Of a stretch of DNA of 64,000 nucleotides, positions 5,424-60,426 are shown piece after piece. Position 1 is the first letter of the stretch; each line of letters begins with the position of its first letter. The DNA lies in NCBI GenBank assembly GCA_951406725.2, contig OX597840.1, positions 26,164,001-26,228,000 of the forward strand. Reading direction: 5' to 3'. The stretch comes from Octopus vulgaris (lineage: Eukaryota). Below the pieces are notes generated by a model. It was not told the DNA's origin and did no database searches. It saw only the letters and a list, made by a program, of their open reading frames with translations. A program made the position numbers and the translations under genes.

Positions 5424-6293
5424 ATGTCGGAAGAATTAGGAAAATCATCATATGACTGTGACATCTGCAAAGAGTCATTCTTAGAAGAAAGTAAATTCAA
5501 TCAACACAAACAAATTCATAAAGGGGAAGCACCATATCACTGTGATATCTGTGGTAAATCATTCTCTGTTCGCAGTAGCTTAACCAAACACAAGCGTATT
5601 CATACAGGGGAGAAACCATATCACTGTGATATCTGTGGTAAATCATTCTCTGATGGCACTACCTTAATTAAACACAAACGTATTCATACGGGAGACAAAC
5701 CATATCACTGTGATATCTGCGGTAAATCATTCTCTCATGCTCATAGCTTAACTACTCACAAGCGTACTCATACAGGGGACAAACCATACCACTGTGATAT
5801 CTGTGGTAAATCATTCTCCGATAGCACTACCTTAATTAAACACAAACGTATTCATACGGGAGACAAACCATATCACTGTGATATCTGCGGTAAATCATTC
5901 TCTCATGCTCATAGCTTAACTAAACACAAGCGTATTCATACCGGTGAGAAACCATACCACTGTGATATCTGTGGTAAATCATTCTCTATTGACAGTAACT
6001 TGACTGCACATAAACGTATTCATACAGGAGAGAAACCATATCACTGTAATATCTGTGGTAAATCATTCACTGTTAGCAGTCACTTAACTCAACATAGACG
6101 TATTCATACAGGAGAGAAACCATACCACTGTGATATCTGTGGTAAATCATTCTCTGTTAGCAGTAGCTTAACCAAACACAAGCGTATTCATACAGGTGAG
6201 GAACCATATCGCTGTGATATCTGTGGTAAATCATTCTCACAAAAACATCACTCAATTAAACACAAGTGTATTCGTTGTGAAGTTGATCCATAA
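5424..6293 (+). CDS. Tandem C2H2 zinc-finger protein, 289 aa, 10 repeats (type A start, X end)
   Basis: Open ORF with C-x2-C-x12-H-x3-H repeats and TG(E/D)KPY linkers; last repeat ends HKCIRC. Confidence 0.9.
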
Positions 6294-6860
6294 CACAGCA
6301 ACATTGGTTGTATAACATTCCTTCAGAAGGACAAGTTTGTATCTCATAAAACCCTCTACACAAGAAAGAAACTATATCAATGTGATATCAATGGTAAGCC
6401 TTTCATTTGAAATGATCCATTAACGAATCGAAAGAGCATTGACAGAGGAAGGAAAACATATCACTGTGATATGAAAATGATCAATTATTAAAACATAACT
6501 GCATTCATACAGAAGAGGAACCATATCACTACAAAGATGATAATCATCATCATTTAAATTTCGCTTTTCCATGCTTCAATGGATCAGATGGAATTCATTG
6601 ATGGAGATTTTCCTGAGCTGGGTACCCTTTCTTGTCACCAATCCTCACCTGTTTCCAAGCAAGGAAATATTTTCCCTGGTGAGACATAATTTACGCAGAG
6701 GACTGGAAATGAAGATACACTCACTTGCGCATACACACACACACTCACACACGTGTATATATGTATGTATGAAGAATTTCTTATAGGAGATATTTTACAT
6801 GTTTTCTCTTTGTCTAAAAGTTTGTAATTCCTATTAGGTAATGAAACACATGTAATGCTG

Positions 6861-6866
6861 AATAAA
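6861..6866 (+). promoter_or_regulatory. Candidate poly(A) signal (homologues at 1385, 12698, 47459 on +; 17056 on -)
   Basis: AATAAA in a conserved gtaatgctgAATAAAta context 0.5-0.8 kb downstream of the ZNF stops. Confidence 0.45.
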
Positions 6867-9317
6867 TACTATCAAACTGTTTTCCAGTCTTATGTGATAT
6901 GTAATTACTCTGCAAAAATTATTATCCAAACCTCAGACAAAAATAATATTTATGTATATATATAATAACCAGCTTGTTTGTACAGCTGTTATACTTTCAT
7001 TAGATTAGTGGAATAAATGAGGGGTGGGGACAGAAGTGGAGAAAAGGGAGGGAGAAATAGAGTAAGGTGATCTTATAATAATTCTGCTTCTCATTCTGTT
7101 ACTTAGCTCGTCAGTAACACTTTCATGTTATTAGAGAAAAGGGGGTAGAGAGAGAAAAGATGATAAGACAAAGAGCGAGGCAAATAGAGAAAGAAAGGAA
7201 AGGGAGAGACAAAAAGAGTAAGAAAGAAGCAAGCATGACATGTGATGGGGGGATTGTAATAGTTATTTTATGGTTAAAAAAGCTAGCTAAATGTTGTGAT
7301 ATAGAGAAGAGTTAGAAATATAATCTTAGCAGAGGGGTGATGTTCTGATGTTGATATTAAAGGAAGGAACAGAGAGAGAGAGATGATGATGATGTCGGTG
7401 GTGAGTTGATTTCTCTTTTTTTATAGAGACCATCACTCAACACTTGCACTTCTTTGCAATTATTCTTTTTTGGAAATTATTTCGTGTTAAAGTTGCCATA
7501 TTTCGGTAATTTCAACCAATCAGTCACATGTATTCAGCTGAAGAAAATTACTGGTGTTGTTACCAACTATCAGCAGTGTATATTTTGTCTGCCACTCTTA
7601 TTTATGACATCGTTCGGGCGTTTTTACTGGTTTTACCTGTAAGGAACTTTACAACAATTTTTCTACTTAGGATTAGGTTCTTAAGGTTACAATTAAGATT
7701 GGGGTCTTAGGTTTAGGGTTACGAAAAAAGTGAAAAGGGAAGAAATTGGAGGGGGAGGGGGGCACAAAAATTCAGGAAAACGATGGAAAAACTTTGATGC
7801 CGTAGAAATGCACGAATGATTATGGTGCTGACATACCCTAGTTTATTCATACGAACGTAACGGAGATGGAATATGTCATGAATAAGAGTGACAAACGAAA
7901 GACTTAGGACTCATTGAATGCTTTAAGTTCTCAAAAAACAAAAAAGAAAAAAACAATCACGCTGAGAGTTGCTGAAGCATGGAACAGACTGCCGGCATCA
8001 GTTGTTAGTTGTCGGAGCACTGCATCCTTCAAAACTTCCATGCTTCCTGACATTCGCCAACACTACACCTGATTTCCTCCCCTCCATACACACACAAGCA
8101 TCTATCTGACTCATACATTGTTTGCTTTCCAGACTTTTTACATTGCTGCATATACTTTATACGCACTTTCTGACAAGTTGTGGTGCACCTGAGCACTGTA
8201 TACAATAATTTCATTATTATTATAATCGATGAGTGGAGATAATCGATAAACTGATTCCTTATGGTTTTTGCCAATTTCGGCAGATTTCGCTCGAATGTGA
8301 TGTCCTTGTCACTTATTTCGGTTTGAAGTTAATCGCTTCATCACTTAACGATCCTAACTTAAAACCGAGCAACGCCGGGCTACACTGCTACTCAAATATA
8401 TATCAGTACAGCCGTTAATATTTAAAGACAAGAGTTAACTCCCCTTGTTAACTCTTCCTAATTTCATTTCTTCCTCCTGTTTCTCGCGCACCTTGATTGC
8501 TTGATCACTTTCACTTTCAAACTGATATTTAAGAGGAAACCCAATCGAAAATATACAAATGATTGGTAATAGAATGTCTAAAGAAACAGTTTCAGCATTT
8601 TTATTATGTCGACCTGCAAAATATGAAGTAACGTTCGTTGGAAAGAGTAAGTATCATTGTGTTATCCCTTCTCTTTTAGATATTTCATCGCACTTGTGTC
8701 TACGCCTTCCGGATCGCCGTCATTTCCTATATTTCTTAATGTCAGATTAATACCTTGTTTAGATAAAATTCCTCTTTCTTTTTGACTTGTAAATTGGACA
8801 ATTTAGTTAAATGCGGATACGGATTTTTGTCAGTGAAGAGGTCGCGGACTTATAGCGACGAAAATATTTTGACAAATTAAACTTAAATGTTGAAGTGAAT
8901 CGAACGGCTTTTGTGTGTTTCTTAAATGGCTTACAAACACCTTCCACGCTGCAATTGTTTTCGTTCCAACACACGATCTCAGATCAAATCACTTGCTATG
9001 CGAGTACATCTTCGAAATTACCATGTAATTTGTAAGAAAAGATGGGGAATGTATAAAAGTACGATTGTGCACTTGAATTACTGAAACGAAAATGCAATGT
9101 CGTATACAGACGAAATGAAAGGGCTTTGAATTGAAACACTTTGACCAAAAATAAATACAAAAATCCGTTTATATAATGTTTTACTCGAAAATTAGTAGTA
9201 AATATATAAAAAAAAAATATCGACACGACATATTAAATGAAGGTTGATAGCCATTGTTTAAAAACTATCACCTTGTGAAATTTAGTTTACTCAAATCAGT
9301 CACTAATAACTCAATTT

Positions 9318-9725
9318 GAATCTTTTCGATTTGAACGGCAGTTTTTCTAGCGGTATCATATGAAATTATCACCCATAATTATGACCCTAGTATCGATCTA
9401 TTGCATTTCAATCTGTTTTAGGGTTAGGGGTGGGGTGAAGGGTATCTTTTTTCTTCTCAAATGTAAATAAACCCAATCTGTTTCTTAAACGAGGGACATA
9501 TTCATATGGCACAGAATGATTTTTTACCTCAATTGACGTCATTGATTAGTTGAAATTGCAGAAATTGAAGAAAAACAACAAATATCATACAAACTTTAGA
9601 ATTTTCTCAATAAAGCCAAGAGAAAAAGTTGTTTTATAAACACATTCTACCAGTATACGAAATTTAAAAGTGTTTAGTTACGTGGAAATTATTTTTAAAA
9701 AGTGCCGTTCAAACCGATAAGATCC
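9318..9725. mobile_element. MITE family 1 copy
   Basis: Same TIRs; perfect 8-bp TSD CTCAATTT at 9310-9317 and 9726-9733. Confidence 0.85.
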
Positions 9726-10077
9726 CTCAATTTTTGTGCTTGAAGCCTTATAAACATTTTTATGTCCATTAAAATATGTAGACATTATAATAATCAAAAA
9801 TCTTTGAGAATGGTTTTAAGCGTGTGTTGGGATTTGGGTTTTGATTGCTGCACTGCGACTGCGTGGAGTTCTCTTCTGTTTTGCAGACATCATGTTCAAC
9901 TTTGGTTTTAGGGAGTCTGGAATGTAGCAACTCGCTGCAAAAAAATATTATTGCGTTGAAGTTTCATTTTGCTTACAATTTAGCAATCTTTGTATTGTAT
10001 ATTGATGTATTTTTCAGTCAATTGAAGCCTTTTAAACTTTGGTATTCGAGTTTGGGTTTATAACAGTGTAGTCTTGT

Positions 10078-10338
10078 GGAGGCATATGGTCTAGTGGTTA
10101 GAGCAGTGGACTCGCAGTCGAGTGATCGCAGGTTCGAATCTCAGACTGAGTGAAACACCTAAGCTCCAGCAGAAGGTAATGGTGAAACTTCTGCTGACTC
10201 TTTCACTACAACTTTCTCACTCTTTCCTCCTGCATCTTGCAACTTACCTGCGACGGACTATCGTCCCATCCAGGTGGAGAACCTATACGCCAAGGAAGGA
10301 GGCTCTTATGAGCCTGGCATGGCTCGAGAAGGAACAAC
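10078..10338 (+). mobile_element. tRNA-derived SINE (duplicate)
   Basis: ggaggcatatggtctagtggttagagc..ggttcgaatc; near-identical to the 4560 copy. Confidence 0.72.
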
Positions 10339-10919
10339 AGTGTGTTCTACTCCCTGATATAAACTTCTTGAAAACAGAGAGATGGGATAAGTTTAATGGT
10401 CCAGATAAAGGATTATTTCTACAGTTTATGAAAACAGAAATGTCGTAAATTTGCACTTTTGAATATCTGCCTTTTAAACATACTTGATGTCTTATATTAT
10501 TTTTTCTATTCTTTCAGAAAATCACATGAAATTAGCTAAAAAGTAATTTTTACTTTTAAAGAATCATCAATATGTATCATGTTTGAAAGACTCTGCAAAG
10601 ATATTCTACAAACGTATAATCCTGCTTCTATAAAACATTGCTCAGTTACAGTAAAATATTTCCTCTGAGAGAGAAAGCATTTCTTTAGTTCTGTGTCTGA
10701 AATGTGCAAGAGAAAATTTTCTCTTTTAAATATACTTTGATGGATTTCCAAAGAGTATTTGCAACATTTTTAAATATTGGCATTGATCACATTTAGAAGA
10801 AATATAAGAGAAGTGATATTTGTTTGGAATAAACTATAAAAGCAAACAGAAGAAAAATATCCATAAATTTTGGTGAGAGGAGAATTAGTATTGAAAAGTT
10901 GTTGATCTTTACAACTTGA

Positions 10920-12017
<1,098 letters not shown>

Positions 12018-17557: not shown

Positions 17558-18799
17558 TTATGGATCAACTTCATAACGAATACACTTGTGTTTAATTGAG
17601 TGATGTTTTTGTGAGAATGATTCACCACAGATGTCACAGCGATATGGTTCCTCACCTGTGTGAATACGTTTATGTGCAGTAAAGTTACTGCCAACAGAGA
17701 ATGATTTACCACAGATATCACAGTGGTATGGTTTCTCCCCTGTATGAATATGCTTGTGTGTGGTTAAGCTACTGCTAACAGAGAAAGATTTGCCACAGAT
17801 ATCACAGGGATATGGTTTCTCACCTGTATGAATACGTTTGTGTTTAGTTAAGGTATTGCCAGCAGAGAATGATTTACCACAGATATCACAGTGATATGGT
17901 TCCTCACCTGTGTGAATACGTTTATTTGCAGTCAAGGTACTGCCAACAGAGAATGATTCACCACAGATACCACAGTGATATGGTCTCTCCCCTGTATGAA
18001 TACGTTTGTGAGTAGTTAAGTTAACTTCTTGAGTGAATGATTTACCACAGATATCACAGCAATATGGTTCCTCACCTGTGTGAATACGTTTGTGTGCAGT
18101 GAAGTTACTGCCAACAGAGAATGATTTACCACAGATATCACAGCAATATGGTTCCTCACCTGTGTGAATATGTTTGTGTACAGTCAAGGTACTGCCAACA
18201 GAGAATGATTCACCACAGATACCACAGTGGTATGGTTTCTCACCTGTATGAATACGTTTGTGGTTAGTAAAGCTACTGTGAAGAGAGAATGATTTACCAC
18301 AGATATCACAGCGATATGGTTCCTCACCTGTGTGAATACGTTTATGTGCAGTCAAGGTACTGCCAACAGAGAATGATTCACCACAGTGATATGGTCTCTC
18401 CCCTGTATGAATACGTTTGTGAGTAGTTAAGTTACCTTCTTGAGTGAATGATTTACCACAGATATCACAGCAATATGGTTGCTCACCTGTGTGAATACGT
18501 TTGTGTGCAGTGAAGTTACTGCCAACAGAGAATGATTTACCACAGATATCACAGCAATATGGTTGCTCCCCTGTATGAATACGTTTGTGTGCAGTCAAGC
18601 TACTGCCAACAGAGAATGATTTACCACAGATATCACAGTGGTGTTGTTTCTCACCTGTATGAATACGTTTGTGGTTAGTAAAGCTACTGCGAAGAGAGAA
18701 TGATTTACCACAGATATCACAGCGATATGGTTCTTGACTTGTATGAATTTCTTGGTGTTTACTGGATTTACGTTTTTCTAAAAATGACATTTTGTACAT
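17558..18799 (-). CDS. Tandem C2H2 zinc-finger protein, 413 aa, about 14 repeats (type B start, X end)
   Basis: Open ORF; one repeat has a 9-nt in-frame deletion (YHCGESF) and one has H>N (TANKRIH). Confidence 0.88.
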   Translation of the reverse strand: MYKMSFLEKRKSSKHQEIHTSQEPYRCDICGKSFSLRSSFTNHKRIHTGEKQHHCDICGKSFSVGSSLTAHKRIHTGEQPYCCDICGKSFSVGSNFTAHKRIHTGEQPYCCDICGKSFTQEGNLTTHKRIHTGERPYHCGESFSVGSTLTAHKRIHTGEEPYRCDICGKSFSLHSSFTNHKRIHTGEKPYHCGICGESFSVGSTLTVHKHIHTGEEPYCCDICGKSFSVGSNFTAHKRIHTGEEPYCCDICGKSFTQEVNLTTHKRIHTGERPYHCGICGESFSVGSTLTANKRIHTGEEPYHCDICGKSFSAGNTLTKHKRIHTGEKPYPCDICGKSFSVSSSLTTHKHIHTGEKPYHCDICGKSFSVGSNFTAHKRIHTGEEPYRCDICGESFSQKHHSIKHKCIRYEVDP

Positions 18800-20029
18800 G
18801 CCACAGTCATATGATGAGTTTCCGTATTCCTCCGATATTTCTTCAAGAAAAATAAAATCGATCCTTCAAGTTGTACAGATCAACAACTTTTCAATAATAT
18901 TTCTTCTCTCACCAAAATATATGGATATTTTGCTTCTTTTTGCTTTTATAGTTTATTCCAAACAAATATCACTTCTCTTATATTTCTTCTAAATGTGATC
19001 AATGCCAATATTTAAAAATGTTGCAAATACTCTTTGGAAATCTATCAATGTATATTTAAAAGAGAAAATTTTCTCTTGCACATTTCAGACACAGAAGTAA
19101 AGAAATGCTTTCTCTCTCAGAGGAAATATTTTACTGTAATTCAGCAATGTTTTATAGAAGCAGGATTATACGTTTGTAGAATATCTTTGCAGAGTCTTTC
19201 AAACATGATACATATTGATGATTCTTTAAAAGTAAAAATACTTTTTAGCCAATTTCAGGCGATTTTCTGAAAGAATAGAAAAAATAAGATAAGACATCAA
19301 GTATGTTTAAAAGGCAGATATTCAAAAGTGTAAATTTACGACATTTCTGTTTTCAAAGATTTTAGAAGTAATTCTTTGTCTGAACTATTAAATTTATCCC
19401 ATCTCTCTGTTTTCAAGAAGTTTATATCAGGGAGTAGATATGTGTAGTATAATAACATCTCCTGGACATTAAGTCTGTCATAGACACATACCAATATACA
19501 TGTCAATAACACTAGATATCTGATGTTTTAATCTCAGTCATGTGTCGTAAAAGAGATATCACACCTCTCCTGCCTCTTTCCGTACATTTATAAATACACA
19601 CATACAGGAAGCTTAATGTCAATATTCTGTTGAATATAAAACATGAATAACAGTCAGCAAATAATCAGTATGGATGACTAACAGCATCAAAATCTTTTGT
19701 GGGGAATTTTTGATGTAGGAAAAAATATTGGTTGAGGTGGAGAAGGAAATTGGTGACAATCCTTCTCAATGGGGGCAAATGATGTAGTTTTAACATTAAA
19801 TTATTCTCGTTTTCTTCTTTACTTTTAAATTCTTACAAGTTACAATTACTGTTTCTCTTCCTTCTTACTTCGCAACAAAATATTGTTTATCGTGGTGAGT
19901 GAAAAATGCAGCGATGCGTAATCACGGAGGTGTGAGTTCGAATCTCATAATAGGGGTAGCTTATCCTGTTCAGGCTATATTATTAGCAATATCCTGCCTT
20001 TGAGAATTTAAAATCACTTTGTAGTGAAG

Positions 20030-20330
20030 CTATACAGCGGCGCGCGCGCGGGCTTGGTGCTTTCACCACCGGAAGTAGGACCTTTTGCCTACGTGGCAGT
20101 TAGCCGAGGCAAGGGGATCGTAGAACGTTTGACCACTAGCAGCAGTCAGCAGCGACTTGAGACATGGCTATCGAAGGTACAACACGTATATTCTCTCTGT
20201 CCGAATTTGATTCTAGCAGCAGCCTATACCGAAAGCTTTTAACCAAATTGTTGCAGACTACATCATCTTCCTTTCTCCGGACGCCATCTTTGACAAGTGT
20301 CGTTTTGCATTTGAACACTTTCTTATTTTA
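20030..20330 (-). promoter_or_regulatory. Candidate CpG-rich promoter / first exon of the 18799 ZNF gene
   Basis: Local GC/CpG island: GCGCGCGCG run, ETS motif CCGGAAGT (20069-20076), YY1 motif CGCCATCTT (20282-20290; AAGATGGCG on the gene strand). Confidence 0.5.
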
Positions 20331-23039
20331 CAGCGATAAGGTTCAGCTGAGACACATCTATACCAAAGGGATGCCAGATACACCAATTATCGGTTACCAC
20401 ATAAGAGAATAAAGTAGATATATATTATTTACGTCTGGGTCTTGTTGTTTCTGACTGGTAGAGAATCCAACGGAAAGTGATTGCTTCTCGCACCCCCAAA
20501 AGGTCCAGAGAAGATATTCACACTAAGATCGTTACAACTTCTTTAACTTCCTAAGACATCTCAAAAGCTTCTAAAGCAAACTTCGTTTGTTTGTTTACGT
20601 TCATCGTAATTTGAATTTAAATATATATGTATTACGAAGAGAGAGAAGGAATAACTTAGGTAATTAATTGAAAACAACATAAAAAAAAAACAGAGTACAA
20701 TTCATATATAATGCCTTAAATCCCAACAACGGACCATTGAATGTGTTTATGTGAAAAAAGATATCGAAAAACATTAGCACGTAAGAGTGAGAAAGAAACT
20801 CGGAAGGTATCAGGTGGTCGTGGGGTGCGCGATAAATAACAGCTAAATTGCTCTTCAATCGGTTTTTTCCTTCTTTGTTGGTTTCATAACCGTTTCAATC
20901 CTTGCATGTACAGCAGAAATACGCAGAAATTTTCTGAAAATTCCCCCAAAATAAAAATGTGATAAGCGGTTACATTGGGTGCTTAAAGAAAGATTCCTTT
21001 GAAAAATAGATATTAATTGTAAGTTGTAATGAAGGAGAAGAACCTTCGGAAATAGAGACTTCCTAGGTTTTAAATAAAATCCGTTCCATTTCTTCTGTAT
21101 ACAAAATTTACTTTTCGTTTCAGTATTTCAAGTGCACACTCGTATTTTTATACATTCCGCATGTCTTAGAAATTACATCGTAATTTTCCCGCGGAATTTA
21201 CATGTGAGGAAGAAAGAGAAAAGTTATCTACACAAGGTATCCATCGGACGTTAACAAATAATATAGGAAATAAGGAAAGATGCAATGAAATATCTGAATG
21301 TAAAGGAGAACACAACGGAAGTATTGAAAGAACAGCCTCACCGAAGTTGAAAAAGTGGGTTTCCATCGCCAAAAAATTAAAGAAAGGTAGGTGCGGTCCA
21401 TGCCCTTTACCTCCGCTATTTCGTCTTTGTTTAGTGAGATTCTTTCTTGTAACTTACTCAACACATCGAAACAAACAGACGTACGTAATCTTTTGTTGGC
21501 GTAAGACACTTATAGATGTTTTCTTTCTTTCACATGTAACATTCAGAAAATGTAATCTAAGATATCAATGTATAATACAGTGATATACTGAAAGAAAAAA
21601 ATTTACAGAAAAGAGAAATAGAAGTATTTCGACTTCTGCATTAAATTAAATTAATATCTATTTTTAAGGAACTTTCTAACAAATGCTTCGTATCATTTTA
21701 TGGGGAATTTTCAGAAAATTTCTTGTATTTGCTGTAAGAAATTGAAAGGAACATACAGAGAAGGAAAAAACCATGATATGGGTGATTGTCTTGAATTATG
21801 CAATATTATCACATAAACACATATTGGTCTGTTTAACATTATATGAATTGTACTCTGTATGTTGTTTTCATTAATTACCTAAGTTGTCCTTTCTCCTGAA
21901 TACAATATTTAAATTCAAATTCAAAGAATATAACAAACAAAGTTTCTTTGAAATGAATGTCTTAGGAAGTTAAAGAAGTTGATGGTGTGTGTATCTTCTC
22001 TATTAAAGCAATATTTCGATCTATCGAAACATAGAAAATAGAATATATACACACTCTATGTGGGATAATTGTGATTATAGATGATAATCTATTTAAATAA
22101 GAAATGTTACAAAATTGTCCAAGAATAAGAAAGTGATGTAGTGCATAATTTAAAAATGCCTGAAATCAATGGAAGAAGAAAATTCGTGTTGATTGATTTA
22201 GCTGCTACATGCTATTCATTCCTGATGTGCCATGAAAAGATATTCTAGTGAAAGACAAAACGAGCGAAAGCTTCACACAAGTATTTACTCAAAAGGCAGG
22301 ATATGAATAATATCTGAACAGGTTACAGAATAATGTGATATGGCATTTTAAAGATAAAAATTTTGTAAATAGGAAGGAAAACAGTAATTAATTATAAAAT
22401 TTAAAAAGTAAAGAAAACGAGAAGATGTTAAAACATCATTTTTATTGTAATTTCCTTCTAAATATTATTACATCAAAGATTTTACTGTTATATTACTGAT
22501 ATGTAATAAGTTTTATATAAATATGATTAAATTTTTATGGTGGTTATAAAGTGGAAAAAGGAGATGATATCTGCATTTTTACAATTAAAAAAAGTATATT
22601 AGTATGTCTGCAGACTGCATGAATAACATACATGTTCTTTTGAAGAAAGAAACTAAAAGAAAACGAAAAATGTAAATTCTGAATATCTGTTAAACATACT
22701 TGATGTCTTAATTTTTCTACTTGAAATTAATAAAAGATACAAGAATCATCAATATGTATCATGTTTAAGCAAGTGTCAAGCGTAATCCTGCTTCTATAAA
22801 ACATTTAATTTTATATTTCAAAGAGAAAGCATGTATCTGTGTCTGAAATGTGCAATTTTCTCTTTTAAATATACATTGATAATTTAAAATTATTTCAACA
22901 TTTTTAAATATTATTGATCAAATTTAGAAAAATATAGAAAAGTGACTGTATAACTATAAAACAAAAAACAAGATATCCATATATTGGTGAGGAGGAAATA
23001 TTATTTGAAAATGATCTGTACAACTTAAACGAATATATG

Positions 23040-23948
23040 GAGGAATAGACAGTGTGTAAAAAATGAAAAGTAAATCAAAAACAAAAAATTTAAACAAAAC
23101 CATATCGCTGTGATATCTGTGGTAAATCATTTCTCTTCCAGTAGCTTTCAACATTCATACAGGTGAGAAAAACAACTGTGATATCTGTGGTAAATCACTC
23201 TGTTAACTGAAAAAAGATATTCTCAACCATATTGCTGTGATATCTGTGGTTCATTCTCTGTGGCAGTATTATGCACACAAACATGTCAACAGGTGAGCAA
23301 CCATTTGTGTGATATCTGTGGTAAATCATTCATAAGAGGAAAACTACTCACAAAAGTCACAAACATACTGTGGTGAATCATTTTATACCTTACACATGAA
23401 AACCTGACTGTGGTAAATCATTCTTCACAGTGAAATGTCCTTTCCTGATACTGCTGCATTCTCTGTTGGAGATGAAATTTCACACATACCATCTGTGATA
23501 TCTGTTAAATATGTTGGCAGTGTAGAAATATTCACACATAGAAATATGCATATTGTGGTAAATATTCATAAAAGTTAACTATATAGTATTTAGAGAATAT
23601 CACTATCTGTGGTGAATCATTCTCTGTTAGTACCTTGACTGAAATAAAGTATTCACACTAGAACCATATCACTGTGATATCTGTGGTAAAATTCTCTGCT
23701 GGATAGAAACACAAACGTATTCATACATGAAACCATATCCCTGTGATATCTGTGGCAAATCTTTCTCTGTTAGCAGTAGCTTAACCACACACAAATATTC
23801 ATGAAACCATAATGTGATATCTGTGGTAAATCATTCTCTGTTCAGTAACTTTTGCACATAAATATTCACCAGGTGAGGAACCATATGTGACAGTGGTTCA
23901 TTCACAAAAACATCACTCAATTCACATTTTCTTATGAAGGATCCATAA
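23040..23948 (+). pseudogene. Heavily deleted inverted copy of the 17558-18799 ZNF gene (probably artefactual)
   Basis: tgtgatatctgtggtaaatca cores survive in the same order as in the 17558 gene, ending gatccataa, with pervasive short deletions. Confidence 0.65.
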
Positions 23949-26452: not shown

Positions 26453-26705
26453 ACATGGATCCACCTTACTCCCTTCTCCTTCCACCCCACTCACTATCAC
26501 CTTTTGTTTTCCCAAGGTTTACCTTCAAACCCTTGCTTTCAAATGTCCTTCCATTTCCAAAACTTCTCTCTCATCAGAACAAGGTCATCTGCATACAGTA
26601 TCTCCATTTACGGTCTCTTTCTTGCATTCTCCTTCTCCACATCAACCACTATGCAAACAACAATGGTGACAACACAGATCCTGATGCACACCACTTTCAC
26701 CACAA
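26453..26705 (-). mobile_element. Non-LTR RT fragment (mirror copy)
   Basis: Reverse complement of 13212-13476 with deletions. Confidence 0.7.
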
Positions 26706-26732
26706 ACAAGCTGGTTACTATATATAGATATA

Positions 26733-27092
26733 CCGTAAATCCTCGAGTATAACACCTAAACCTAAACCTTGTGTATAATACACATTCTCTAACTTGAGTC
26801 GTGATTAAGCCAGCAGCACCTAGTCAAACAAACACTTCCACGCATGCGTAATACAATAATGGTGATGTTTTTAACTGTTATATGGGAATGTAAATATCAA
26901 ATTGATTTTGTTACATGTTATTCTGTGTTCTGAATACTTTTATTTTAATAAATGTGTCTGAATAAATGCCTGACAGCAAAATAGAGACTCGGACATTGCT
27001 TAGAAAATATTTTTCATTTTAACCTCGTATATAGTACGCACTAGGGATTTTGACCGATAAATTTTATGCGGATTATACTCAAGGATTTACGG
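26733..27092. mobile_element. MITE family 2 copy (mirror arm)
   Basis: Same TIRs and TA flanks. Confidence 0.75.
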
Positions 27093-27876: not shown

Positions 27877-28965
<1,089 letters not shown>

Positions 28966-29569: not shown

Positions 29570-29840
29570 CTGTTGTTCCTTCTCGAGCCATGCCAGGCTC
29601 ATAAGAGCCTCCTTCCTTGATGTGTAGGTTCTCCACCTGGATGGGACGCTAGTCCGTCGCAGGTAAGTTGCAAGATGCAGGAGGATAGAGTGAGGAAAGT
29701 TGCAGCGAAAGAGTCAGCAGAAGTTTCACCATTACCTTCTGCTGGAGCATGGTGCTTAGGTGTTTCGCTCGGTCTGAGATTCGAACCTGCGATCACTCGA
29801 CTGCGAGTCCACTGCTCTAACCACTAGACCATATGCCTAC
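29570..29840 (-). mobile_element. tRNA-derived SINE (mirror arm, more divergent)
   Basis: Reverse complement of the 10078 copy with substitutions and small insertions. Confidence 0.7.
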
Positions 29841-39200: not shown

Positions 39201-39455
39201 TTAGGGTATGGTTTTATCTTTCATATTAATATGACTGTGTAGAATTCTCCATTTTCATAGAATGATTAAGCACTGCTATCACAGTGATATGTTTTCCTTC
39301 CTCTGTCAATGCTCTTTCGATTCGTTAATGGATCATTTCAAATGAAAGGCTTACCATTGATATCACATTGATATAGTTTCTTTCTTTGTGTAGAGGGTTT
39401 TATGAGATACAAACTTGTCCTTCTGAAGGAATGTTATACAACCAATGTCACTGTG

Positions 39456-42430
<2,975 letters not shown>

Positions 42431-45235
42431 ATTCTCGTACGCAAAAATTTCTGAAAATTCCCCCAAATAAAAATATGTGACGAGGGATTATATTAGGTGC
42501 TTAAAGCAGCACTCCACACACACACAAATTAAATAAATTAGAAAAACATATTAATTCTAAATTTTAATGATGCAAAAGAACCACCAGAAATAAAGACTTC
42601 CTATCTCTCAAATAGAAGCCGATCCATTTCCTCTCGTTACGATATTTGCTTTTCGTTTCAGTATTTCAAGTGCACACTCGTATTTTTATACATTCCCCAT
42701 TTCTTACAAAGACAAGACTTGTTCAGAGTTAATTCTTCCTAATTTTGTTGCTCCGTGTGCATGTGTATTGCTTGCTCAGTTCCACTTAACAATTGATATT
42801 GAAGAGACAATCTAATTAAATAGATACGTGATTGGTAATTAAGTGTCTAAAGAAACAGATGCAGCATTTTTTTATATTATGTTGACCTGTTAAATATGAA
42901 TATTCGTCGCAAAAATTCTCTTGAAGCTGTCACTGTCCACTCTAACTTTTCCCTGATTCAACATATTCTCATATTTTCATCGTTGACTCTCTCTGAATAT
43001 ATATTACTATGTAAGTATATTTCTATTGTATATGTATCATATTACGTACGTCTGTTTGTTTCGATGTGTTGAGTAAGTTACAAGAAAGAATCTCACTAAA
43101 CAAAGACGAAATAGCGGAGGTAAAGGGCATGGACCTCACCTACCTTTCCCTAATTTTTTGGCGATGGAAACCCACTTTTTCAACTTCGGTGAGGCTGTTC
43201 TTTCAATACTTCCGTTGTGTTCTCCTTTACATTCAGATATTTCATTGCATCTTTCCTTATTTCCTATATTATTTGTTAACGTCCGATGGATACCTTGTGT
43301 AGATAACTTTTCTCTTTCTTCCTCACATGTAAATTCCGCGGGAAAATTACGATGTAATTTCTAAGACATGCGGAATGTATAAAAATACGAGTGTGCACTT
43401 GAAATACTGAAACGAAAAGTAAATATTGTATACAGAAGAAATGGAACTGATTTTATTTAAAACCTAGGAAGTCTTTATTTCCGAAGGTTCTTCTCCATCA
43501 TTACAACTTACAATTAATATCTATTTTTCAAAGGAATCTTTCTTTAAGCACCCAATGTAACCGCTTATCACATATTTTTATTTTGGGGGAATTTTCAGAA
43601 AATTTCTGCGTATTTCTGCTGTACATGCAAGGATTGAAACGGTTATGAAACCAACAAAGAAGGGAAAAAACCGATTGAAGAGCAGTTTAGCTGTTATTTA
43701 TCGCGCACCCCACGACCACCTGATACCTTTCGAGTTTCTTTCTCACTCTTACGTGCTAATGTTTTTCGATATCTTTATTCACATAAACACATTCAATGGT
43801 CTGTTGTTGGGATTTAAGGCATTATATATGAATTGCACTCTATATTTTAATGTTAATTTTAATTAATTACCTAAGTTATCCTTCTCTCTCTTCGTAATAC
43901 ATATATATTTAAATTCAAATTACGATGAACGTAAACAAACAAACGAAGTTTGCTTTAGAAGCTTTGAGATGTCTTAGGAAGTTAAAGAAGTGATTTTAAA
44001 TTCTCAAAGGCAGGATATTGCTAATAATATAGCCTGAACAGGATAAGCTACCCCTATTTTGCAGAAAAGTGTTGGCGGCCGGCTATGAGATTCGAACTCA
44101 CACCTCCGTGATTACGCATCGCTGCATTTTTCACTCACCACGATAAACAATATTTCGTTGCGATGTAAAAAGGAAGGGAAACATTAATTGTAACTTGTAA
44201 GAATTTTAAAAAAAAGAAGAAAACGAGAATAATTTAATGTTAAAACTACATCATTTGCCCCCATTGAGAAGGATTGTCACCAATTTCCTTCTCCACCTCA
44301 ACCAATATTTTTTCCTACATCAAAAATTCCCCACGAAAGATTTTGATGCTGTTAGTCATCCATACTGATTATTTGCTGACTGTTATTCATGTTTCATATT
44401 CAACAGAATATTGACATTAAGCTTCCTGTATGTGTGTATTTATAAATGTACGGAAAGAGGCAGGGGAGGTGTGATATCTCTTTTAGGACACATGACTGAG
44501 ATGAAAACATCAGATATCTAGTGTTATTGACATGTATATTGGTGTGTGTCTATGACAGACTTAATGTCCAGGAGATGTTATTATACTACACATATCTACT
44601 CCCTGATATAAACTTCTTGAAAACAGAGAGATGGGATAAATTTAATAGTTCAGATAAAGAATTACTTCTAAAATCTTTGAAAACAGAAATGTCGTCAATT
44701 TGCTCTTTTGAATATCTGCCTTTTAAACATACTTGATGTCTTATATTATTTTTTCTATTCTTTCAGAAAAATCACATGAAATTGGCTAAAGAGTATTTTT
44801 TGCTTTTAAGGGATCATCAATATGTATCATGTTTGAAAGACTCTGCAAAGATATTCTACAAACGTATAATCCTGCTTCTAGAAAACATTGCTGAATTACA
44901 GTAAAATATTTCCTCTGAGAGAGAAAGCATTTCTTTACTTCTGTGTCTGAAATGTGCAAGAGAAAATTTTCTCTTTTAAATATACTTTGATGGATTTCCA
45001 AAGAGTATTTGCAACATTTTTAAATATTGGCAATGATCATGTTCAGAAGAAATATAAGAGAAGTGATATTTGTTTGGAATAAACTATAAAAGCAAAAAGA
45101 AGAAAAATATCCATATATTTTGGTGAGAGAAGAAATATTATTGAAAAGTTGTTGATCTGTAAAACTTGAAGGATTGATTTTATTTTTCTTGAAGAAATAT
45201 CGGAGGAATACGGAAACTCATCATATGACTGTGGC

Positions 45236-46738
45236 ATGTACAAAATGTCATTTTTAGAAAAACGTAAATCCAGTAAACATCAAGAAATTCATACAAGTCA
45301 AGAACCATATCACTGTGATATCTGTGATAAATCATTCTCTCTTCACAGTAGCTTTACTAACCACAAACGTATTCATACAGGTGAGAAACCACACCACTGT
45401 GATATCTGTGGTAAATCATTCTCTTTTAGCAGTACCTTGACTGTACACAAACGTATTCATACAGGGAAGAAACCATATCACTGTGATATCTGTGGTAAAT
45501 CATTCTCTGTTGGCAGTAACTTCACTGCACACAAACGTATTCACACAGGTGAGCAACCATATTGCTGTGATATCTGTGGTAAATCATTCACTCAAGAAGG
45601 TAACTTAACTACTCACAAACGTATTCATACAGGTGAGAGACCATATCACTGTGGTATCTGTGGTGAATCATTCTCTGTTGGCAGTACCTTGACTGCACAT
45701 AAACGTATTCACACAGGTGAGGAACCATATCACTGTGATATCTGTGGTAAATCATTCTCTTTTAGCAGTAACTTCACTGCACACAAACGTATTCACACAG
45801 GTGAGGAACCATATTGCTGTGATATCTGTGGTAAATCATTCTCTGCTGGCAATACCTTAACTAAACACAAACGTGTTCATACAGGTGAGAAACCATATCC
45901 CTGTGATATCTGTGGTAAATCATTCTCTGTTAGCAGTAACTTCACTGCACACAAACGTATTCACACAGGTGAGGAACCATATTGCTGTGATATCTGTGGT
46001 AAATCATTCTCTGCTGGCAATACCTTAACTAAACACAAACGTGTTCATACAGGTGAGAAACCATATCCCTGTAATATCTGTGGCAAATCTTTCTCTGTTA
46101 ACATTAGCTTAACCACACACAAGCGTATTCATGCAGGGGAGAAACCATATCCCTGTGATATCTGTGGCAAATCTTTCTCTGAAAACGGCAGTTTAACTAA
46201 ACACAAGCGTATTCATACAGGTGAGAAACCATGCCACTGTGATATCTGTGGTAAATCATTCTCTGTTGGCTGTAACTTGACTGCACATAAACGTATTCAT
46301 ACAGGAGAGAAACCATATCACTGTAATATCTGTGGTAAATCATTCACTGTTAGCAGTCACTTAACTCAACATACACGTATTCATACAGGGGAGAAACCAT
46401 ACCACTGTGATATCTGTGGTAAATCATTCTCTGTTAGCAGTAGCTTAACCAAACACAAGCGTATTCATACAGGTGAGGAACCATATCGCTGTGATATCTG
46501 TGGCAAATCTTTCTCTGAAAACAGCAGCTTAACTAAACACAAGCGTATTCATACAGGTGAGAAACCATACCACTGTGATATCTGTGGTAAATCATTCTCT
46601 GTTGGCAGTAACTTGACTGCACATAAACGTATTCACACAGGTGAGGAACCATATCGCTGTGACATCTGTGGTGAATCATTCTCACAAAAACATCACTCAA
46701 TTAAACACAAGTGTATTCGTTGTGAAGTTGATCCATAA
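45236..46738 (+). CDS. Tandem C2H2 zinc-finger protein, 500 aa, 17 repeats (type B start, X end)
   Basis: Open ORF of canonical fingers, ends [10 protein letters not shown]. Confidence 0.9.
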   Translation: MYKMSFLEKRKSSKHQEIHTSQEPYHCDICDKSFSLHSSFTNHKRIHTGEKPHHCDICGKSFSFSSTLTVHKRIHTGKKPYHCDICGKSFSVGSNFTAHKRIHTGEQPYCCDICGKSFTQEGNLTTHKRIHTGERPYHCGICGESFSVGSTLTAHKRIHTGEEPYHCDICGKSFSFSSNFTAHKRIHTGEEPYCCDICGKSFSAGNTLTKHKRVHTGEKPYPCDICGKSFSVSSNFTAHKRIHTGEEPYCCDICGKSFSAGNTLTKHKRVHTGEKPYPCNICGKSFSVNISLTTHKRIHAGEKPYPCDICGKSFSENGSLTKHKRIHTGEKPCHCDICGKSFSVGCNLTAHKRIHTGEKPYHCNICGKSFTVSSHLTQHTRIHTGEKPYHCDICGKSFSVSSSLTKHKRIHTGEEPYRCDICGKSFSENSSLTKHKRIHTGEKPYHCDICGKSFSVGSNLTAHKRIHTGEEPYRCDICGESFSQKHHSIKHKCIRCEVDP

Positions 46739-52169: not shown

Positions 52170-53022
52170 TATACATATATATTATTTTTGTGGGCAGTCT
52201 GGATGATATTTTTTACAGAGTAATTACAAAACACATAAGGACAGTGGAGAAAAGTTTGATATTATTTATTCAGCATTACATGTGTTTCATTTCCTAATAG
52301 GAATTACAAACATTTAGATGTGTAGAGAACATATAAGATATTTCATATAAGAAAGTCTTCAGACATACATAAGTGTGTGTGTGTGAACCCTTGTCCAGAT
52401 ATTATGTGGTGTCCGTAAATGGCCATCATGACTGTCATACTTGTGCAGTTGTTCATTTCCAGTCTTGTGTGCAAAATATGTCTCACCAGGGAAAATATTT
52501 CCTTGCTTGGAAACAGGGAAGGTATCAATGAATTCAATCCGATCCATAGAAGAATGTAAAAGTGAATGTTAAATGATGAGGATCATCATCATCGTAGTGA
52601 TATGGTTCCTCTTCTGTTTGAATTCATTTATGTTATAATTGATCACTATCAGATATCTTAGGGTATGGCATATCCTTCATATTAACAGGACTGTGTATAA
52701 TTAATTCACCATTTTGAAAGAATGATTCAGGTTTAACATCACAGTGATATGTTTTCCTTCCTCTGTCAATGCTCATTTGATTCAATAATGGATGATTTCA
52801 TGTCAAAGATTTACCATAGATGTCACATTCATATAGTTTCTATATTCTGTGGATGTCTTTATGAGATACGTCCTTTGTCCTTTTGAGGAAATGTTATACA
52901 ACAAATATCACTGTGTTATGGACCCACTTCATAAGGAAAGACTTCTGTTTAAATCAGAAATGATTTGCCACAGATATCACTGTGAATTTATTTTTCTTGA
53001 GTGTGAAATCATTTGTGTATAG

Positions 53023-54693
<1,671 letters not shown>

Positions 54694-55439
54694 CTCTTCA
54701 AGAATAATAAAATCGATCTTTCAAGTTGTACAGATCAACAACTTTTCAATACTAATTCTCCTCTCACCAAAATATATGGATATTTTTCTTCTTTTTGCTT
54801 TTATAGTTTATTCCAAACAAATATCACTTCTTTTATATTTCTTCTAAATGAGATCATTGCCAATATTTAAAAATGTTGCAAATACTCTTTGTAAATCCAT
54901 CAAAGTATATTTAAAAGAGAAAATTATCTCTTGCACATTTCAGAAGTAAAGAAATGTTTTCTCTCTCAGAGGAAATATTTTACTGTAATTCAGCAATGTT
55001 TTATAGAAGCAGGATTATACGTTTATAGAATATCTTTGCAGAGTCTTTCAAACATGATACATATTGATGATTCTTTAAAAGTAAAAAATACTTTTTAGCC
55101 AATTTCATGTGATTTTCTGAAAGAATAGAAAATATAATATAAGACATCAAGTATGTTTAAAAGGCAGATATTCAAAAGTGCAAATTTATGACATTTCTGT
55201 TTTCATAAATTGTAGAAGCAATCCTTTATCTGAACTACTAAACTTATCCCATCTCTCTATTTTCAAGAAGTTTATATCAGGGAGTAGACAAGTATTATAA
55301 TAACATCTCCTGGACATTAAGTCTGTCCTAGACACACACACATACCAATATACATGTCAATGACACTAGATATCTAATGTTTTCATCTGAAGGGGGTTTT
55401 CTCCAGTGTCTGAGTATGCTTGGGTCTAGTTAGGCAAAT

Positions 55440-55595
55440 ACTAACAGAGAATGATTCACCACTGATATCACAGTGATATGGCTTCTCCCCTCCATGAACT
55501 CTTGTGTGAGTAGTGAAGTTACCTCTTTGATAGAATTACTTGCCACAGATATTACAGTGATCTGGTTTCTCCTCTAAATTAATACGTTTGCGTTG
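55440..55595 (-). pseudogene. Old decayed relic of about 2 zinc fingers (duplicate of 40735-40890)
   Basis: Near-identical to 40735-40890. Confidence 0.65.
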
Positions 55596-57294
55596 CGTTA
55601 AGCTGATGCCACTGTAGCAGATTCCAAACTACCTTTCATTTGCACTCTTTCAGTTGGTGAAGCTAAATCGCCTTTATATCAAACACTTTCTCCTCTGAAA
55701 AGGTAAAATTGTTTTTCTTAACCGAAAGGGTTTCTCCGCTGTTTTTTGAGTGCCAGAATTAGTCTGGAGAAAAGAAGGGCCAAAATCGGTCTAGAGTGTG
55801 TTTGTGGAGGCGAGTTTGTTGAAAAGAGTGAACTAACTCAAAGGTAACCCATGCTGTATGCAGTCACTTTGCATGCTAGAAATAGCAGGGATTTATTATG
55901 TTTTTAAACGACATAATGACTTAATTAAGATAATGTTTCCTCTTAATTCGGTTTTGTATTTCCTAATTATAAAAATGTGGAACCAAACTTAAAACCATTC
56001 TCAGTGACTTTTTGATTATTATTATTATTATAATTTCTATATATTTTAATGGACATAAAAATGTTTATAATGCTTCAAGCATGGAAAATTAAATTATTGC
56101 TGACTGATTTGAGTAAACTAAATTTCACAAGACGATAGTTTTTAAACAATGGAGATCAGCCTTCATTTTATATGTCGAGTTGATATTTTTTTAATATATT
56201 TACAACTAAGTTTCGAGTAAAAGATTATATAAACGGATTTTTATATTTGTTTTTGGTGAAATTAGGTACTTTCTGGTGTTTCAATTCAAAGCCCTTTCAT
56301 TTCGTCTGTATACCATATTGCCTTTTCGTTTCAGTAATTCAAGTGCACAATCGTACTTTTATACATTCCCCATCTTTTCTTACAAATAACAGCCTTACTT
56401 TCATATAATTTCTTCTTTGTTTGGTTAGATTCTTTCTTTTGACTTATTCAACACAAGGAAACAAACAGATGTACGTAATATGATACTTAATACAATAGAA
56501 ATGTCTTTATAATACTTACATAGTAATTGATATAAAGAGAGAGTCAACGAGTCAGAGCATTACATGTGTTTCATTTCCTAATAGGAATCACAAACATTTA
56601 CACGTAGAGAAAACATTTAAGATATTTCCTATAAGAAATTCTTCAGACATACACATGTATCTGTGCGTGTTCCTTTGCCTAGATATTATGTGATGTTCGT
56701 AAAGGGCCATCATGACCATCATACTTGTGCAGTTGTTCACTTCTAGCCTTCTGCATAAAATATGTCTCACCATATTTTATGGAAAATATTTCCTTGCTTG
56801 GAAACATGTGAAGATTGGTCACAAGAAAGGTACCCAGATGTAGAAAATCTCCATCAATGAATTCCATCCGATCCACAGAAGCAAGAATAGGAGAATGTTA
56901 AATGATGAGGATCATCATCATCGTGGTTCCTCTTCTGTATGAATGCATTTACATTTCAATAATTGATCCATTTTCATAGATTGATTTAGCACGAATAGCT
57001 TAGGTTACAGTTATATCTTTCATATTAATAGGACTGTGTACAAACAATTCACCATTTTGATAGAATGATTCAGGTTTAACATCAAAGTGATATGTTTTCC
57101 TTCCTCTGTCAATGCTCTTTTGATTCAATGATGGATGATTTCATGTCAAAGATTTACCATAGATGTCACATTCATATAGTTTCTATATTCTGTGGATGTC
57201 TTTATAAGATACGTCCTTTGTCCTTTTGAGGAAATGTTATACAACAAATATCACTGTGTTATGGACCCACTTCATAAGGAAAGACTTCTGTTTA

Positions 57295-57420
<126 letters not shown>

Positions 57421-60400
57421 CTACCCTGTATGAATACGGTTGTGGTGAATGAAGCCACTGTTCTGAGAGAATGATTTACCACAGATATCACAGTGATATG
57501 GTTTCTCCCCTGTATGGATACGTGTGTGTTCAGTTAAGCCACTGTTTTGAGAGAATGATTTACCACAGATATCACAGTGATATGACTTCTCCCCTGTATG
57601 GATACGTTTGTGTCTAGCTAAGTTACTGTCACTAGATAATGATTTACCACAGATGTCACAGCGATATGGTTCCTCACCTGTGTGAATACGTTTGTGAGTA
57701 GTTAAGTTACCTTCTTGAGTGAATGATTTACCACAGATATCACAGCAATATGGTTCCTCACCTGTATGAATACGCTTGTGTTTGGTTAAGCTACTGCTAA
57801 CAGAGAATGATTTACCACAGATATCACAGTGGTATGGTTTCTCACCTGTATGAATACGTTTGTGAGTAGTTAAGTTACCTTCTTGAGTGAATGATTTACC
57901 ACAGATATCACAGCAATATGGTTCCTCACCTGTGTGAATATGTTTATGTGCAGTCAAGTTACTGCCAGCAGAGAATGATTTACCACAGATATCACAGTGG
58001 TATGGTTTCTCACCGGTATGAATACGTGTATGTTGAGTTAAGTGATTGCTAACAGTGAATGATTTACCACAGATATTACAGTGATATGGTTTCTCTCCTG
58101 TATGAATACGTTTATGTGCAGTCAAGTTACTGCCAACAGAGAATGATTTACCACAGATATCACAGTGGTATGGTTTCTCACCGGTATGAATACACTTGTG
58201 TTTAGTTAAGCTGCTGTTTTCAGAGAAAGATTTGCCACAGATATCACAGCGATATGGTTTCTCACCTGTATGAATACGCTTGTGTTTGGTTAAGTTACTG
58301 CTAACAGAGAATGATTTACCACAGATATCACAGTGGTCTGGTTTCTCCCCTGTATGAATACGTGTATGTTGAGTTAAGCTACTGCTAACAGAGAATGATT
58401 TACCACAGATATTACAGTGATATGGTTTCTCTCCTGTATGAATACGTTTATGTGCAATCAAGTTACTGCCAACAAAGAATGATTTACCACAGATATCACA
58501 GTGGTATGGTTTCTCACCTGTATGAATACGCTTGTGTTTAGTTAAACTGCCGTTTTCAGAGAAAGATTTGCCACAGATATCACAGCGATATGGTTTCTCC
58601 CCTGCATGAATACGCTTGTGTGTGGTTAAGCTAATGTTAACAGAGAAAGATTTGCCACAGATATCACAGGGATATGGTTTCTCACCTGTATGAATACGCT
58701 TGTGTTTGGTTAAGCTACTGCTAACAGAGAATGATTTACCACAGATATCACAGCAATATGGTTCCTCACCTGTGTGAATACGTTTGTGTGCAGTGAAGTT
58801 ACTGCTAACAGAGAATGATTTACCACAGATATCACAGGGATATGGTTTCTCACCTGTATGAACACGTTTGTGTTTAGTTAAGGTATTGCCAGCAGAGAAT
58901 GATTTACCACAGATATCACAGCAATATGGTTCCTCACCTGTGTGAATACGTTTGTGTGCAGTGAAGTTACTGCTAACAGAGAATGATTTACCACAGATAT
59001 CACAGGGATATGGTTTCTCACCTGTATGAACACGTTTGTGTTTAGTTAAGGTATTGCCAGCAGAGAATGATTTACCACAGATATCACAGCAATATGGTTC
59101 CTCACCTGTGTGAATACGTTTGTGTGCAGTGAAGTTACTGCTAACAGAGAATGATTTACCACAGATATCACAGGGATATGGTTTCTCACCTGTATGAACA
59201 CGTTTGTGTTTAGTTAAGGTATTGCCAGCAGAGAATGATTTACCACAGATATCACAGCAATATGGTTCCTCACCTGTGTGAATACGTTTGTGTGCAGTGA
59301 AGTTACTGCTAACAGAGAATGATTTACCACAGATATCACAGGGATATGGTTTCTCACCTGTATGAACACGTTTGTGTTTAGTTAAGGTATTGCCAGCAGA
59401 GAATGATTTACCACAGATATCACAGCAATATGGTTCCTCACCTGTGTGAATACGTTTGTGTGCAGTGAAGTTACTGCTAACAGAGAATGATTTACCACAG
59501 ATATCACAGGGATATGGTTTCTCACCTGTATGAACACGTTTGTGTTTAGTTAAGGTATTGCCAGCAGAGAATGATTTACCACAGATATCACAGCAATATG
59601 GTTCCTCACCTGTGTGAATACGTTTGTGTGCAGTGAAGTTACTGCTAAAAGAGAATGATTTACCACAGATATCACAGGGATATGGTTTCTCACCTGTATG
59701 AACACGTTTGTGTTTAGTTAAGGTATTGCCAGCAGAGAATGATTTACCACAGATATCACAGCAATATGGTTCCTCACCTGTGTGAATACGTTTGTGTGCA
59801 GTGAAGTTACTGCTAACAGAGAATGATTTACCACAGATATCACAGGGATATGGTTTCTCACCTGTATGAACACGTTTGTGTTTAGTTAAGGTATTGCCAG
59901 CAGAGAATGATTTACCACAGATATCACAGCGATATGGTTCCTCACCTGTGTGAATACGTTTATGTGCAGTCAAGGTACGGCCAACAGAGAATGATTCACC
60001 ACAGATACCACAGTGATATGGTCTCTCACCTGTATGAATACGTTTGTGAGTAGTTAAGTTACCTTCTTGAGTGAATGATTTACCACAGATATCACAGCAA
60101 TATGGTTCCTCACCTGTGTGAATACGTTTGTGTGCAGTGAAGTTACTGCCAACAGAGAATGATTTACCACAGATATCACAGCAATATGGTTCCTCACCTG
60201 TGTGAATATGTTTGTGTACAGTCAAGGTACTGCCAACAGAGAATGATTCACCACAGATACCACAGTGGTATGGTTTCTCACCTGTATGAATACGTTTGTG
60301 GTTAGTAAAGCTACTGTGAAGAGAGAATGATTTACCACAGATATCACAGCGATATGGTTCTTGACTTGTATGAATTTCTTGGTGTTTACTGGATTTACGT

Positions 60401-60426
60401 TTTTCTAAAAATGACATTTTGTACAT
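57421..60426 (-). CDS. Tandem C2H2 zinc-finger protein, 1001 aa, 35 fingers (type B start, Y end)
   Basis: 3-kb open ORF of 28-aa repeats ending HHNRIHTG at the linker TAG. Confidence 0.9.
58740..59930 (-). repeat. 168-bp two-finger higher-order tandem repeat, 7 copies
   Basis: gtattgccagc recurs at about 58883, 59051, 59219, 59387, 59555, 59723 and 59891, encoding alternating AGNTLTK / VSSNFTA helices. Confidence 0.9.

What the first reader, a model, noticed from the sequence alone, without database searches (positions are those of the whole stretch)
5424..60426. Combinatorial shuffling of ZNF gene halves: all four N-end x C-end combinations are present
Seen: two N-terminal types (A MSEELGK.., B MYKMSF..) and two C-terminal/3' flank types (X ..[11 protein letters not shown][C/Y]EVDP, Y ..[26 protein letters not shown]). 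They occur as A-X (5424), A-Y (10947, 54693), B-X (18799, 45236) and B-Y (60426). Internal finger blocks are also shared across types: the xHS helices (HAHSL, DSTTL) in 5424 and 54693; ESSSL in 10947 and 54693; VSSHLTQ in 5424 and 45236. The 5.5-kb duplication boundaries fall inside the arrays. Inference: the 84-bp repeat acts as a recombination substrate that makes new DNA-binding specificities by swapping gene halves, like the PRDM9 minisatellite but across a whole gene cluster.
Basis: partly seen in the sequence, partly recalled or inferred. Interest (0 to 1): 0.72.

Follow-up and report, generated by a model that had tools for sequence, protein, structure and literature searches.

The report
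Zinc-finger genes that swap halves
In a likely octopus gene cluster, zinc-finger genes carry every pairing of two front ends with two back ends, likely because their repeated fingers let neighbouring copies cross over in frame, which would create new DNA-binding proteins in one step, though some joins may be assembly errors.

Summary
In detail: all six ORFs are at the stated places and the four pairings are real in the assembly. Over 56 genes on this chromosome, B is a clade of 5' flanks and X and Y are clades of 3' flanks; in the 21 local genes each grouping is rejected on the opposite side (AU p<1e-69). All four pairings recur in a second cluster 3 Mb away. Gene 54693 is fingers 1-10 of one paralogue plus the tail of 10947. 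The B-Y join stands twice, on both sides of a gap. Corrections: X and Y are the two ends of one duplicated spacer; flanks also break, arrays only about 1.3-2.9 times more often; the PRDM9 diversity signature is weak (0.38); window 21.5-39.6 kb is likely a long-read fold-back artefact, partly overwritten by a distant paralogue. No spanning long reads were available. Best reading: ordinary non-allelic recombination that favours the coding finger repeats. The scan earlier noted a related spacer inversion elsewhere in this genome.

The parts
1..607 (+). Tail of an error-rich A-type gene that starts 526 bases before the window; first ~9 fingers follow the gene at 72445, tail is X-like
607..5423 (.). 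Head-to-tail spacer family U (3' flank to A-type 5' flank)
   Evidence: spacer 7; 2.0% from spacer 8
4992..5000 (+). Candidate splice acceptor before the finger exon, present before every gene; stops in all three frames between it and the ATG, so likely a non-coding leader
   Evidence: splicing not tested
5424..6293 (+). A-X gene, 289 aa; xHS fingers then a B-X-type tail (switch between fingers 5 and 6)
6240..10946 (.). Head-to-tail spacer family U, second copy
   Evidence: spacer 8
10947..11891 (+). A-Y gene, 314 aa
12017..17611 (.). Tail-to-tail spacer T: Y at one end, X at the other; six copies in the local cluster
   Evidence: spacers 0, 2, 5, 9, 12, 16
17558..18799 (-). B-X gene, 413 aa
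21490..39606 (-). Likely long-read fold-back artefact: inverted copy of 511-21489, with broken copies of the genes at 10947 (near 28965) and 5424 (near 34650); not counted as genes
   Evidence: 285 deletions (median 3 bases) against 5 insertions in 3.6 kb; error falls with distance from the fold; ends at the gap
39607..39706 (.). 100-N scaffold gap, inside an array
39707..39988 (-). 5' part of an A-type gene cut by the gap; its apparent X tail is not evidence
39989..45196 (.). Head-to-head spacer H (A-type 5' flank to B-type 5' flank)
   Evidence: spacer 11; 2.3% from spacer 4
45236..46738 (+). B-X gene, 500 aa
46685..52952 (.). Tail-to-tail spacer T, second copy in the window
   Evidence: spacer 12
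52953..54693 (-). A-Y chimeric gene: fingers 1-10 match an A-X paralogue 28 kb before the window, fingers 13-16 are identical to 10947; 1-base frameshift near the end
53629..53653 (-). Crossover interval of the 54693 chimera; one copy found in the assembly
54694..57295 (.). Mosaic spacer: half of spacer H joined to a Y 3' end; a breakpoint in flank DNA, not in an array
   Evidence: spacer 13
57421..60426 (-). B-Y gene, 1001 aa, 35 fingers; its twin 12.5 kb before the window has 24
57637..57655 (-). B-to-Y crossover interval (17 shared bases); the same join stands in the twin gene
58753..59928 (-). Run of near-identical two-finger (168-base) units; minisatellite-like expansion, 924 bases more than the twin

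Best explanation
These are finger-only C2H2 zinc-finger genes whose 5' and 3' flanks are almost freely paired, likely because germline crossovers between non-allelic copies favour the 84-base finger repeats. Shown: decoupled flank trees, mapped in-register joins, whole spacer cassettes copied end to end with different gene halves on either side. Inferred: crossovers between arrays in the same direction duplicate or delete spacer-plus-half-gene units; crossovers between facing arrays would invert the tail-to-tail spacer and swap X for Y. Because 84 bases are 28 codons, joins keep the frame and give full-length proteins with new finger orders, which would change DNA targets (untested). Breaks in flanks occur as well, at a lower rate. 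No dedicated recombinase or signal is needed.
For: B clade 100/100 on the 5' tree; X 100/99 and Y 99/99 on the 3' tree; local counts A-X 4, A-Y 6, A-other 3, B-X 6, B-Y 2 of 21, and A-X 4, A-Y 12, A-other 12, B-X 3, B-Y 3, B-other 1 of 35 in the cluster 3 Mb away. 5'-by-3' r2 0.032, permuted mean 0.0205 (max 0.029 of 20), within flanks 0.063 and 0.173. AU rejections. 54693 painted finger by finger to two parents; the A-X form of its 5' block also stands in the distant cluster, so A-Y is derived. B-Y join in two copies that differ in finger number and several bases, across a gap. Of 7 gene pairs within 1.5% at the 5' flank, 0 stay within 3% across the array, 4 keep upstream homology (pairs not independent). 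Switch test enriched across arrays at all three margins. 151 of 311 local canonical fingers have an identical 84-mer in another gene.
Against: Nearest-neighbour retention is no lower across arrays than in flanks (6 of 35 and 7 of 40, against 8 of 34, 7 of 31, 7 of 38, 8 of 39). Over all genes the enrichment is small (15 of 43 against 35 of 154 at margin 2%; 10 of 43 against 27 of 154 at 2.5%) and the counts are not independent. Five local spacers are mosaics with internal breaks. The window holds an 18-kb artefact, 4 kb of which best matches a paralogue 3.3 Mb away, so this assembly can make chimeras in silico. The 54693 join has one copy only. The twin B-Y genes may be two alleles, not two paralogues.
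Confidence: 0.65

Rival explanations
1. The chimeras are real but arrays are not favoured: the whole cluster is a mosaic of 2-4% diverged duplicates and crossovers fall anywhere.
For: Nearest-neighbour test shows equal loss of linkage in flanks and across arrays; mosaic spacers 1, 13, 15, 18, 21; within-5'-flank site incompatibility is already 0.43.
Against: Margin-based switch test is higher across arrays in every setting tried; 15 of 21 local spacers with homologues are end-to-end copies although they are about four times longer than arrays (149 kb of spacer, 34 kb of array; my count).
Confidence: 0.2
2. The rare pairings are assembly products: the assembler jumped between paralogues inside arrays, or consensus steps overwrote one copy with another.
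For: Fold-back arm and a gap inside an array in this window; arm 27.0-30.9 kb best matches the distant cluster; frameshifted genes nearby.
Against: All four pairings recur 3 Mb away with different joins; B-Y genes lie scattered over the Y clade; the local B-Y join stands in two distinct copies; the overwritten stretch replaced A-Y by a collinear A-Y and did not swap flank type; a third cluster keeps one pairing in 11 of 11 genes.
Confidence: 0.12
3. A programmed or somatic switch (shufflon-like) inverts or swaps halves within an animal.
For: Facing gene pairs around spacer T have the geometry of an invertible segment.
Against: Joins lie at different fingers, with no common signal beyond the finger framework; no recombinase ORF among ORFs of 100 aa or more was recognised (not searched against families); copies differ by 1-4%, which fits germline history.
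Confidence: 0.03

Closest known systems
Vertebrate poly-ZF / KRAB-ZNF clusters (PMC2604467 and PMC12575710; passages read)
   Same: Tandem clusters, local duplication, finger gain and loss presumed to be by recombination, fast change at base-contacting residues, non-allelic recombination.
   Different: There, conversion between paralogues was short and found in few genes (chicken excepted), and mouse breakpoints were tied to retroviral elements and multi-gene blocks. Here the coding arrays themselves are frequent junctions, whole halves are re-paired, and no KRAB or other effector domain is found.
PRDM9 coding minisatellite (PMC3890296 abstract; PMC5519329 and PMC11703093 passages)
   Same: 84-base coding repeat, finger-number change, identical fingers reused, diversity peaks at helix positions -1, +3, +6.
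   Different: PRDM9 is one locus with KRAB, SSXRD and SET domains and homogenised within the array; here exchange is between genes, within-gene framework distance (0.118) is close to between-gene distance (0.135), and the diversity statistic is 0.38.
Coleoid cephalopod C2H2 expansion (PMC9068888 and PMC9795677; passages)
   Same: Large clustered family of C2H2 genes; gene conversion is suggested there for protocadherins.
   Different: The passages read give counts, places and dates, not swapping of gene halves.
Chimeric genes by unequal crossing-over in tandem families such as KIR (PMC7516082, search listing only); TAL effector repeat swapping (recalled, no call supports it)
   Same: Hybrid genes from crossovers between paralogues.
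   Different: Here the crossover substrate is a many-copy coding repeat, so any finger can pair with any other in frame.

Membership tests
Tandem C2H2 (poly-ZF) genes | Tandem C2H2 fingers with TGEKPY-type linkers | tested here: met
   PF13465 and PF00096 above cut-off in 3 of 3 proteins scanned
KRAB-ZNF | KRAB domain | tested here: not met
   No KRAB among the listed Pfam hits (best 25 per protein); ORFs begin within ~12 residues of the first finger; upstream exons not mapped
PRDM9 | KRAB, SSXRD and SET domains before the array | tested here: not met
   stops in all three frames between the acceptor and the ATG at 5424
PRDM9-like coding minisatellite | High share of amino-acid diversity at -1, +2, +3, +6 | tested here: not met
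   Median 0.38 over 55 genes against 0.49-0.55; per-gene method, only roughly comparable
PRDM9-like coding minisatellite | Finger-number change by repeat turnover | tested here: met
   24 against 35 fingers in twin genes, by insertions of 252 and 672 bases
PRDM9-like coding minisatellite | Allelic diversity between individuals, germline instability | not testable with these tools
   One unphased assembly; only short contigs of other runs
PRDM9-like coding minisatellite | Positive selection at base-contacting codons | tested here: inconclusive
   pN/pS 1.2-1.8 at contact codons against 0.54-0.59 in the variable framework, 388 nearest-finger pairs; not a formal test, recombination breaks its assumptions
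Non-allelic homologous recombination in tandem clusters | Mosaic copies with crossovers in tracts of identity between paralogues | tested here: met
Programmed inversion system (shufflon-type) | Fixed crossover sites and a site-specific recombinase | tested here: not met
   Joins at different fingers; recombinase not searched beyond a look at ORF sizes
Octopus C2H2 expansion | Cephalopod origin of the genome | tested here: inconclusive
   2.80-Gb genome and finger style fit octopus from recall and earlier scan notes; homology searches named no cephalopod

The most novel reading that the evidence does not exclude
The cluster works as one shared coding minisatellite: fingers are exchanged among dozens of genes so fast that the two chromosome copies of one animal carry different chimeric genes. 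The 12-kb spacer found at 0.3% divergence on both sides of the gap would then be two alleles with 24 against 35 fingers in one gene, a different tail in the other and different neighbours, a standing source of individual DNA-binding repertoires, perhaps against transposons.
Probability: 0.25. Interest if true: 0.75.

Novelty: new variant of a known kind. Interest (0 to 1): 0.46.

Why it matters
Cephalopods carry one of the largest C2H2 repertoires and how it diversifies is little studied. If arrays are the preferred junctions, new finger orders arise in single in-frame steps, gene trees and ortholog calls for these genes are ill-defined, and repertoires may differ between individuals. It also warns that gene counts in such clusters are inflated by artefacts: 18 of the window's 64 kb look like a fold-back copy.

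Tried and rejected
Short contigs of four other runs laid on the B-Y join at 99% likeness: no listed piece held both the last B-type and first Y-type base; the longest near it ended 2 bases short. A hole proves nothing, so this is no evidence either way. Four runs laid on 19000-28000: summed depth fell from thousands before 21.4 kb to 0-22 at 21.7-22.9 kb; also a part without cover, so not counted as evidence. Run search: no RNA holder listed. Protein search with the B N-end: 0 of 4 candidates scored; with a whole B-X protein: the best 120 listed were generic zinc-finger proteins, none named from a cephalopod. Atlas: generic clusters. The low pN/pS at Cys/His codons is circular (fingers were chosen by that motif) and is not used. 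Genes at 28965, 34650 and 39988 were dropped as artefact or gap-cut. My early idea that 60426 has a third tail type was wrong: its first 216 flank bases are Y and the switch comes later. A reciprocal product of the B-Y swap was looked for on the trees and not found. Literature searches found no report of half-swapping in cephalopod zinc-finger clusters; subscription papers are not covered, the 2015 octopus genome paper was not held, and no supplements were read.

Full report
What is there. The window is part of a cluster of finger-only C2H2 genes on contig C27 of a 2.80-Gb genome; octopus is likely but rests on recall and earlier scan notes, as my searches named no cephalopod. B is a derived form of A: the first ATG is lost and the first finger is degenerate, so the ORF starts at a later Met.

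An artefact first. The stretch 21.5-39.6 kb is an inverted copy of 0.5-21.5 kb. Near the fold it lacks 35-50% of bases, far from it it is 99-100% identical, and it ends at a 100-N gap. In 3.6 kb aligned there are 285 deletions of median 3 bases against 5 insertions. One contig of another run fits 21371-21489 with its first 119 of 357 letters only. Fold-back reads are a described long-read artefact (PMC12870357, passages); that the second arm is deletion-rich is from recall. Within this arm, 27.0-30.9 kb best matches a paralogue 3.3 Mb away, so consensus steps made a chimera here.

Testing the pairings. I found 83 gene starts in the window and 1 Mb of fetched stretches. Dropped: 10 without a 3' anchor, 13 on other contigs, 3 artefact or gap-cut, 1 with a distant anchor, leaving 56. 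On the 5' tree B is a clade (100/100; one gene my motif rule called A falls in it); on the 3' tree X (100/99) and Y (99/99) are clades. Locally: A-X 4, A-Y 6, A-other 3, B-X 6, B-Y 2. In the cluster 3 Mb away: A-X 4, A-Y 12, A-other 12, B-X 3, B-Y 3, B-other 1. Linkage between 5' and 3' sites is barely above permutation (r2 0.032; permuted mean 0.0205, maximum 0.029 of 20; within flanks 0.063 and 0.173). For the 21 local genes AU tests reject B on the 3' tree and X and Y on the 5' tree.

Mapping joins. In 54693 fingers 1-10 differ by 0-1 bases from a paralogue 28 kb before the window that ends in X, and fingers 13-16 are identical to 10947; the switch lies at 53629-53653 and was found once in the assembly. 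The B-Y switch of 60426 lies at 57637-57655 and stands twice, in copies with 35 and 24 fingers. All three joins inspected fall in the conserved framework before a recognition helix and keep the 84-base register.

Architecture. Local spacers fall into families copied end to end: tail-to-tail T (six copies, always X at one end and Y-type at the other; one copy lacks a scored anchor), head-to-head H and K (two each), head-to-tail U (three) and V (two). So X and Y are two ends of one cassette, and genes are what forms where cassettes meet. Five spacers are internal mosaics.

Are arrays favoured? Mixed. Requiring a margin on both sides, closest relatives switch across the array in 12 of 18 local genes against 16 of 63 flank controls (margin 1.5%), 8 of 18 against 10 of 63 (2%), 5 of 18 against 6 of 63 (2.5%); over all genes 25 of 43 against 58 of 154, 15 of 43 against 35 of 154, 10 of 43 against 27 of 154. 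A plain nearest-neighbour test shows no difference. Counts are not independent, so I give no p-value.

PRDM9 comparison. Diversity peaks at -1, +3, +6 and +1; pN/pS is 1.2-1.8 at contact codons (informal). The PRDM9 statistic is 0.38, below 0.49-0.55 (PMC11703093, passages), and fingers within a gene are hardly more alike than between genes (0.118 against 0.135): a cluster-wide finger pool rather than per-gene homogenisation.

Mechanism. Likely germline non-allelic recombination: same-direction arrays give duplications and deletions with hybrid genes; facing arrays would invert T and swap tails. Joins, mosaics and cassettes are shown; the crossover process, expression and new binding targets are inferred. 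Predicted transposon binding by octopus fingers is reported in PMC10547256 (passages) and was not tested here.

Known and new. Finger gain and loss and cluster recombination are known in vertebrates (PMC2604467, PMC12575710; passages), where paralogue conversion was mostly short. Near-free pairing of gene halves through the arrays was not found in my searches. It is a new variant of a known process; without spanning reads single joins stay unproven.

Noticed in passing
window 21490-39606: Likely long-read fold-back artefact of 18 kb that adds two false gene copies; other findings on this stretch should be treated as artefact.
   Followed up: yes
window 27000-30900: Part of the fold-back arm best matches C27:22.881-22.885 Mb rather than its own mirror, a likely consensus or polishing chimera.
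   Followed up: partly
window 60465 to 8.4 kb beyond the window end, against 12.5-0.5 kb before the window start: A 12-kb head-to-head spacer at 0.3% divergence on both sides of the gap; alleles assembled in tandem or a very young duplicate.
   Followed up: partly
window 41849-42432: Orphan 3' flank of a zinc-finger gene inside the head-to-head spacer; it served as the breakpoint behind gene 60426.
   Followed up: partly
window 4829 and 10346: 5' flanks of 5424 and 10947 leave the common upstream sequence about 600 bases before the ATG; an insertion or older rearrangement.
   Followed up: no
L081-L094 (C2:14.63-14.74 Mb): A related cluster of 11 genes, all one pairing and all in one direction, with near-identical whole-gene duplicates; one gene repeats about nine fingers internally.
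   Followed up: no
L061-L068 (C27:23.05-23.08 Mb) and L047: Short genes with a stop in the third finger alternate with intact ones; several genes in this cluster carry an early stop after five codons.
   Followed up: no
L001 (gene 59 kb before the window): A second copy of the gene-start finger lies inside the array, 102 bases out of register, as if two gene starts were fused.
   Followed up: no
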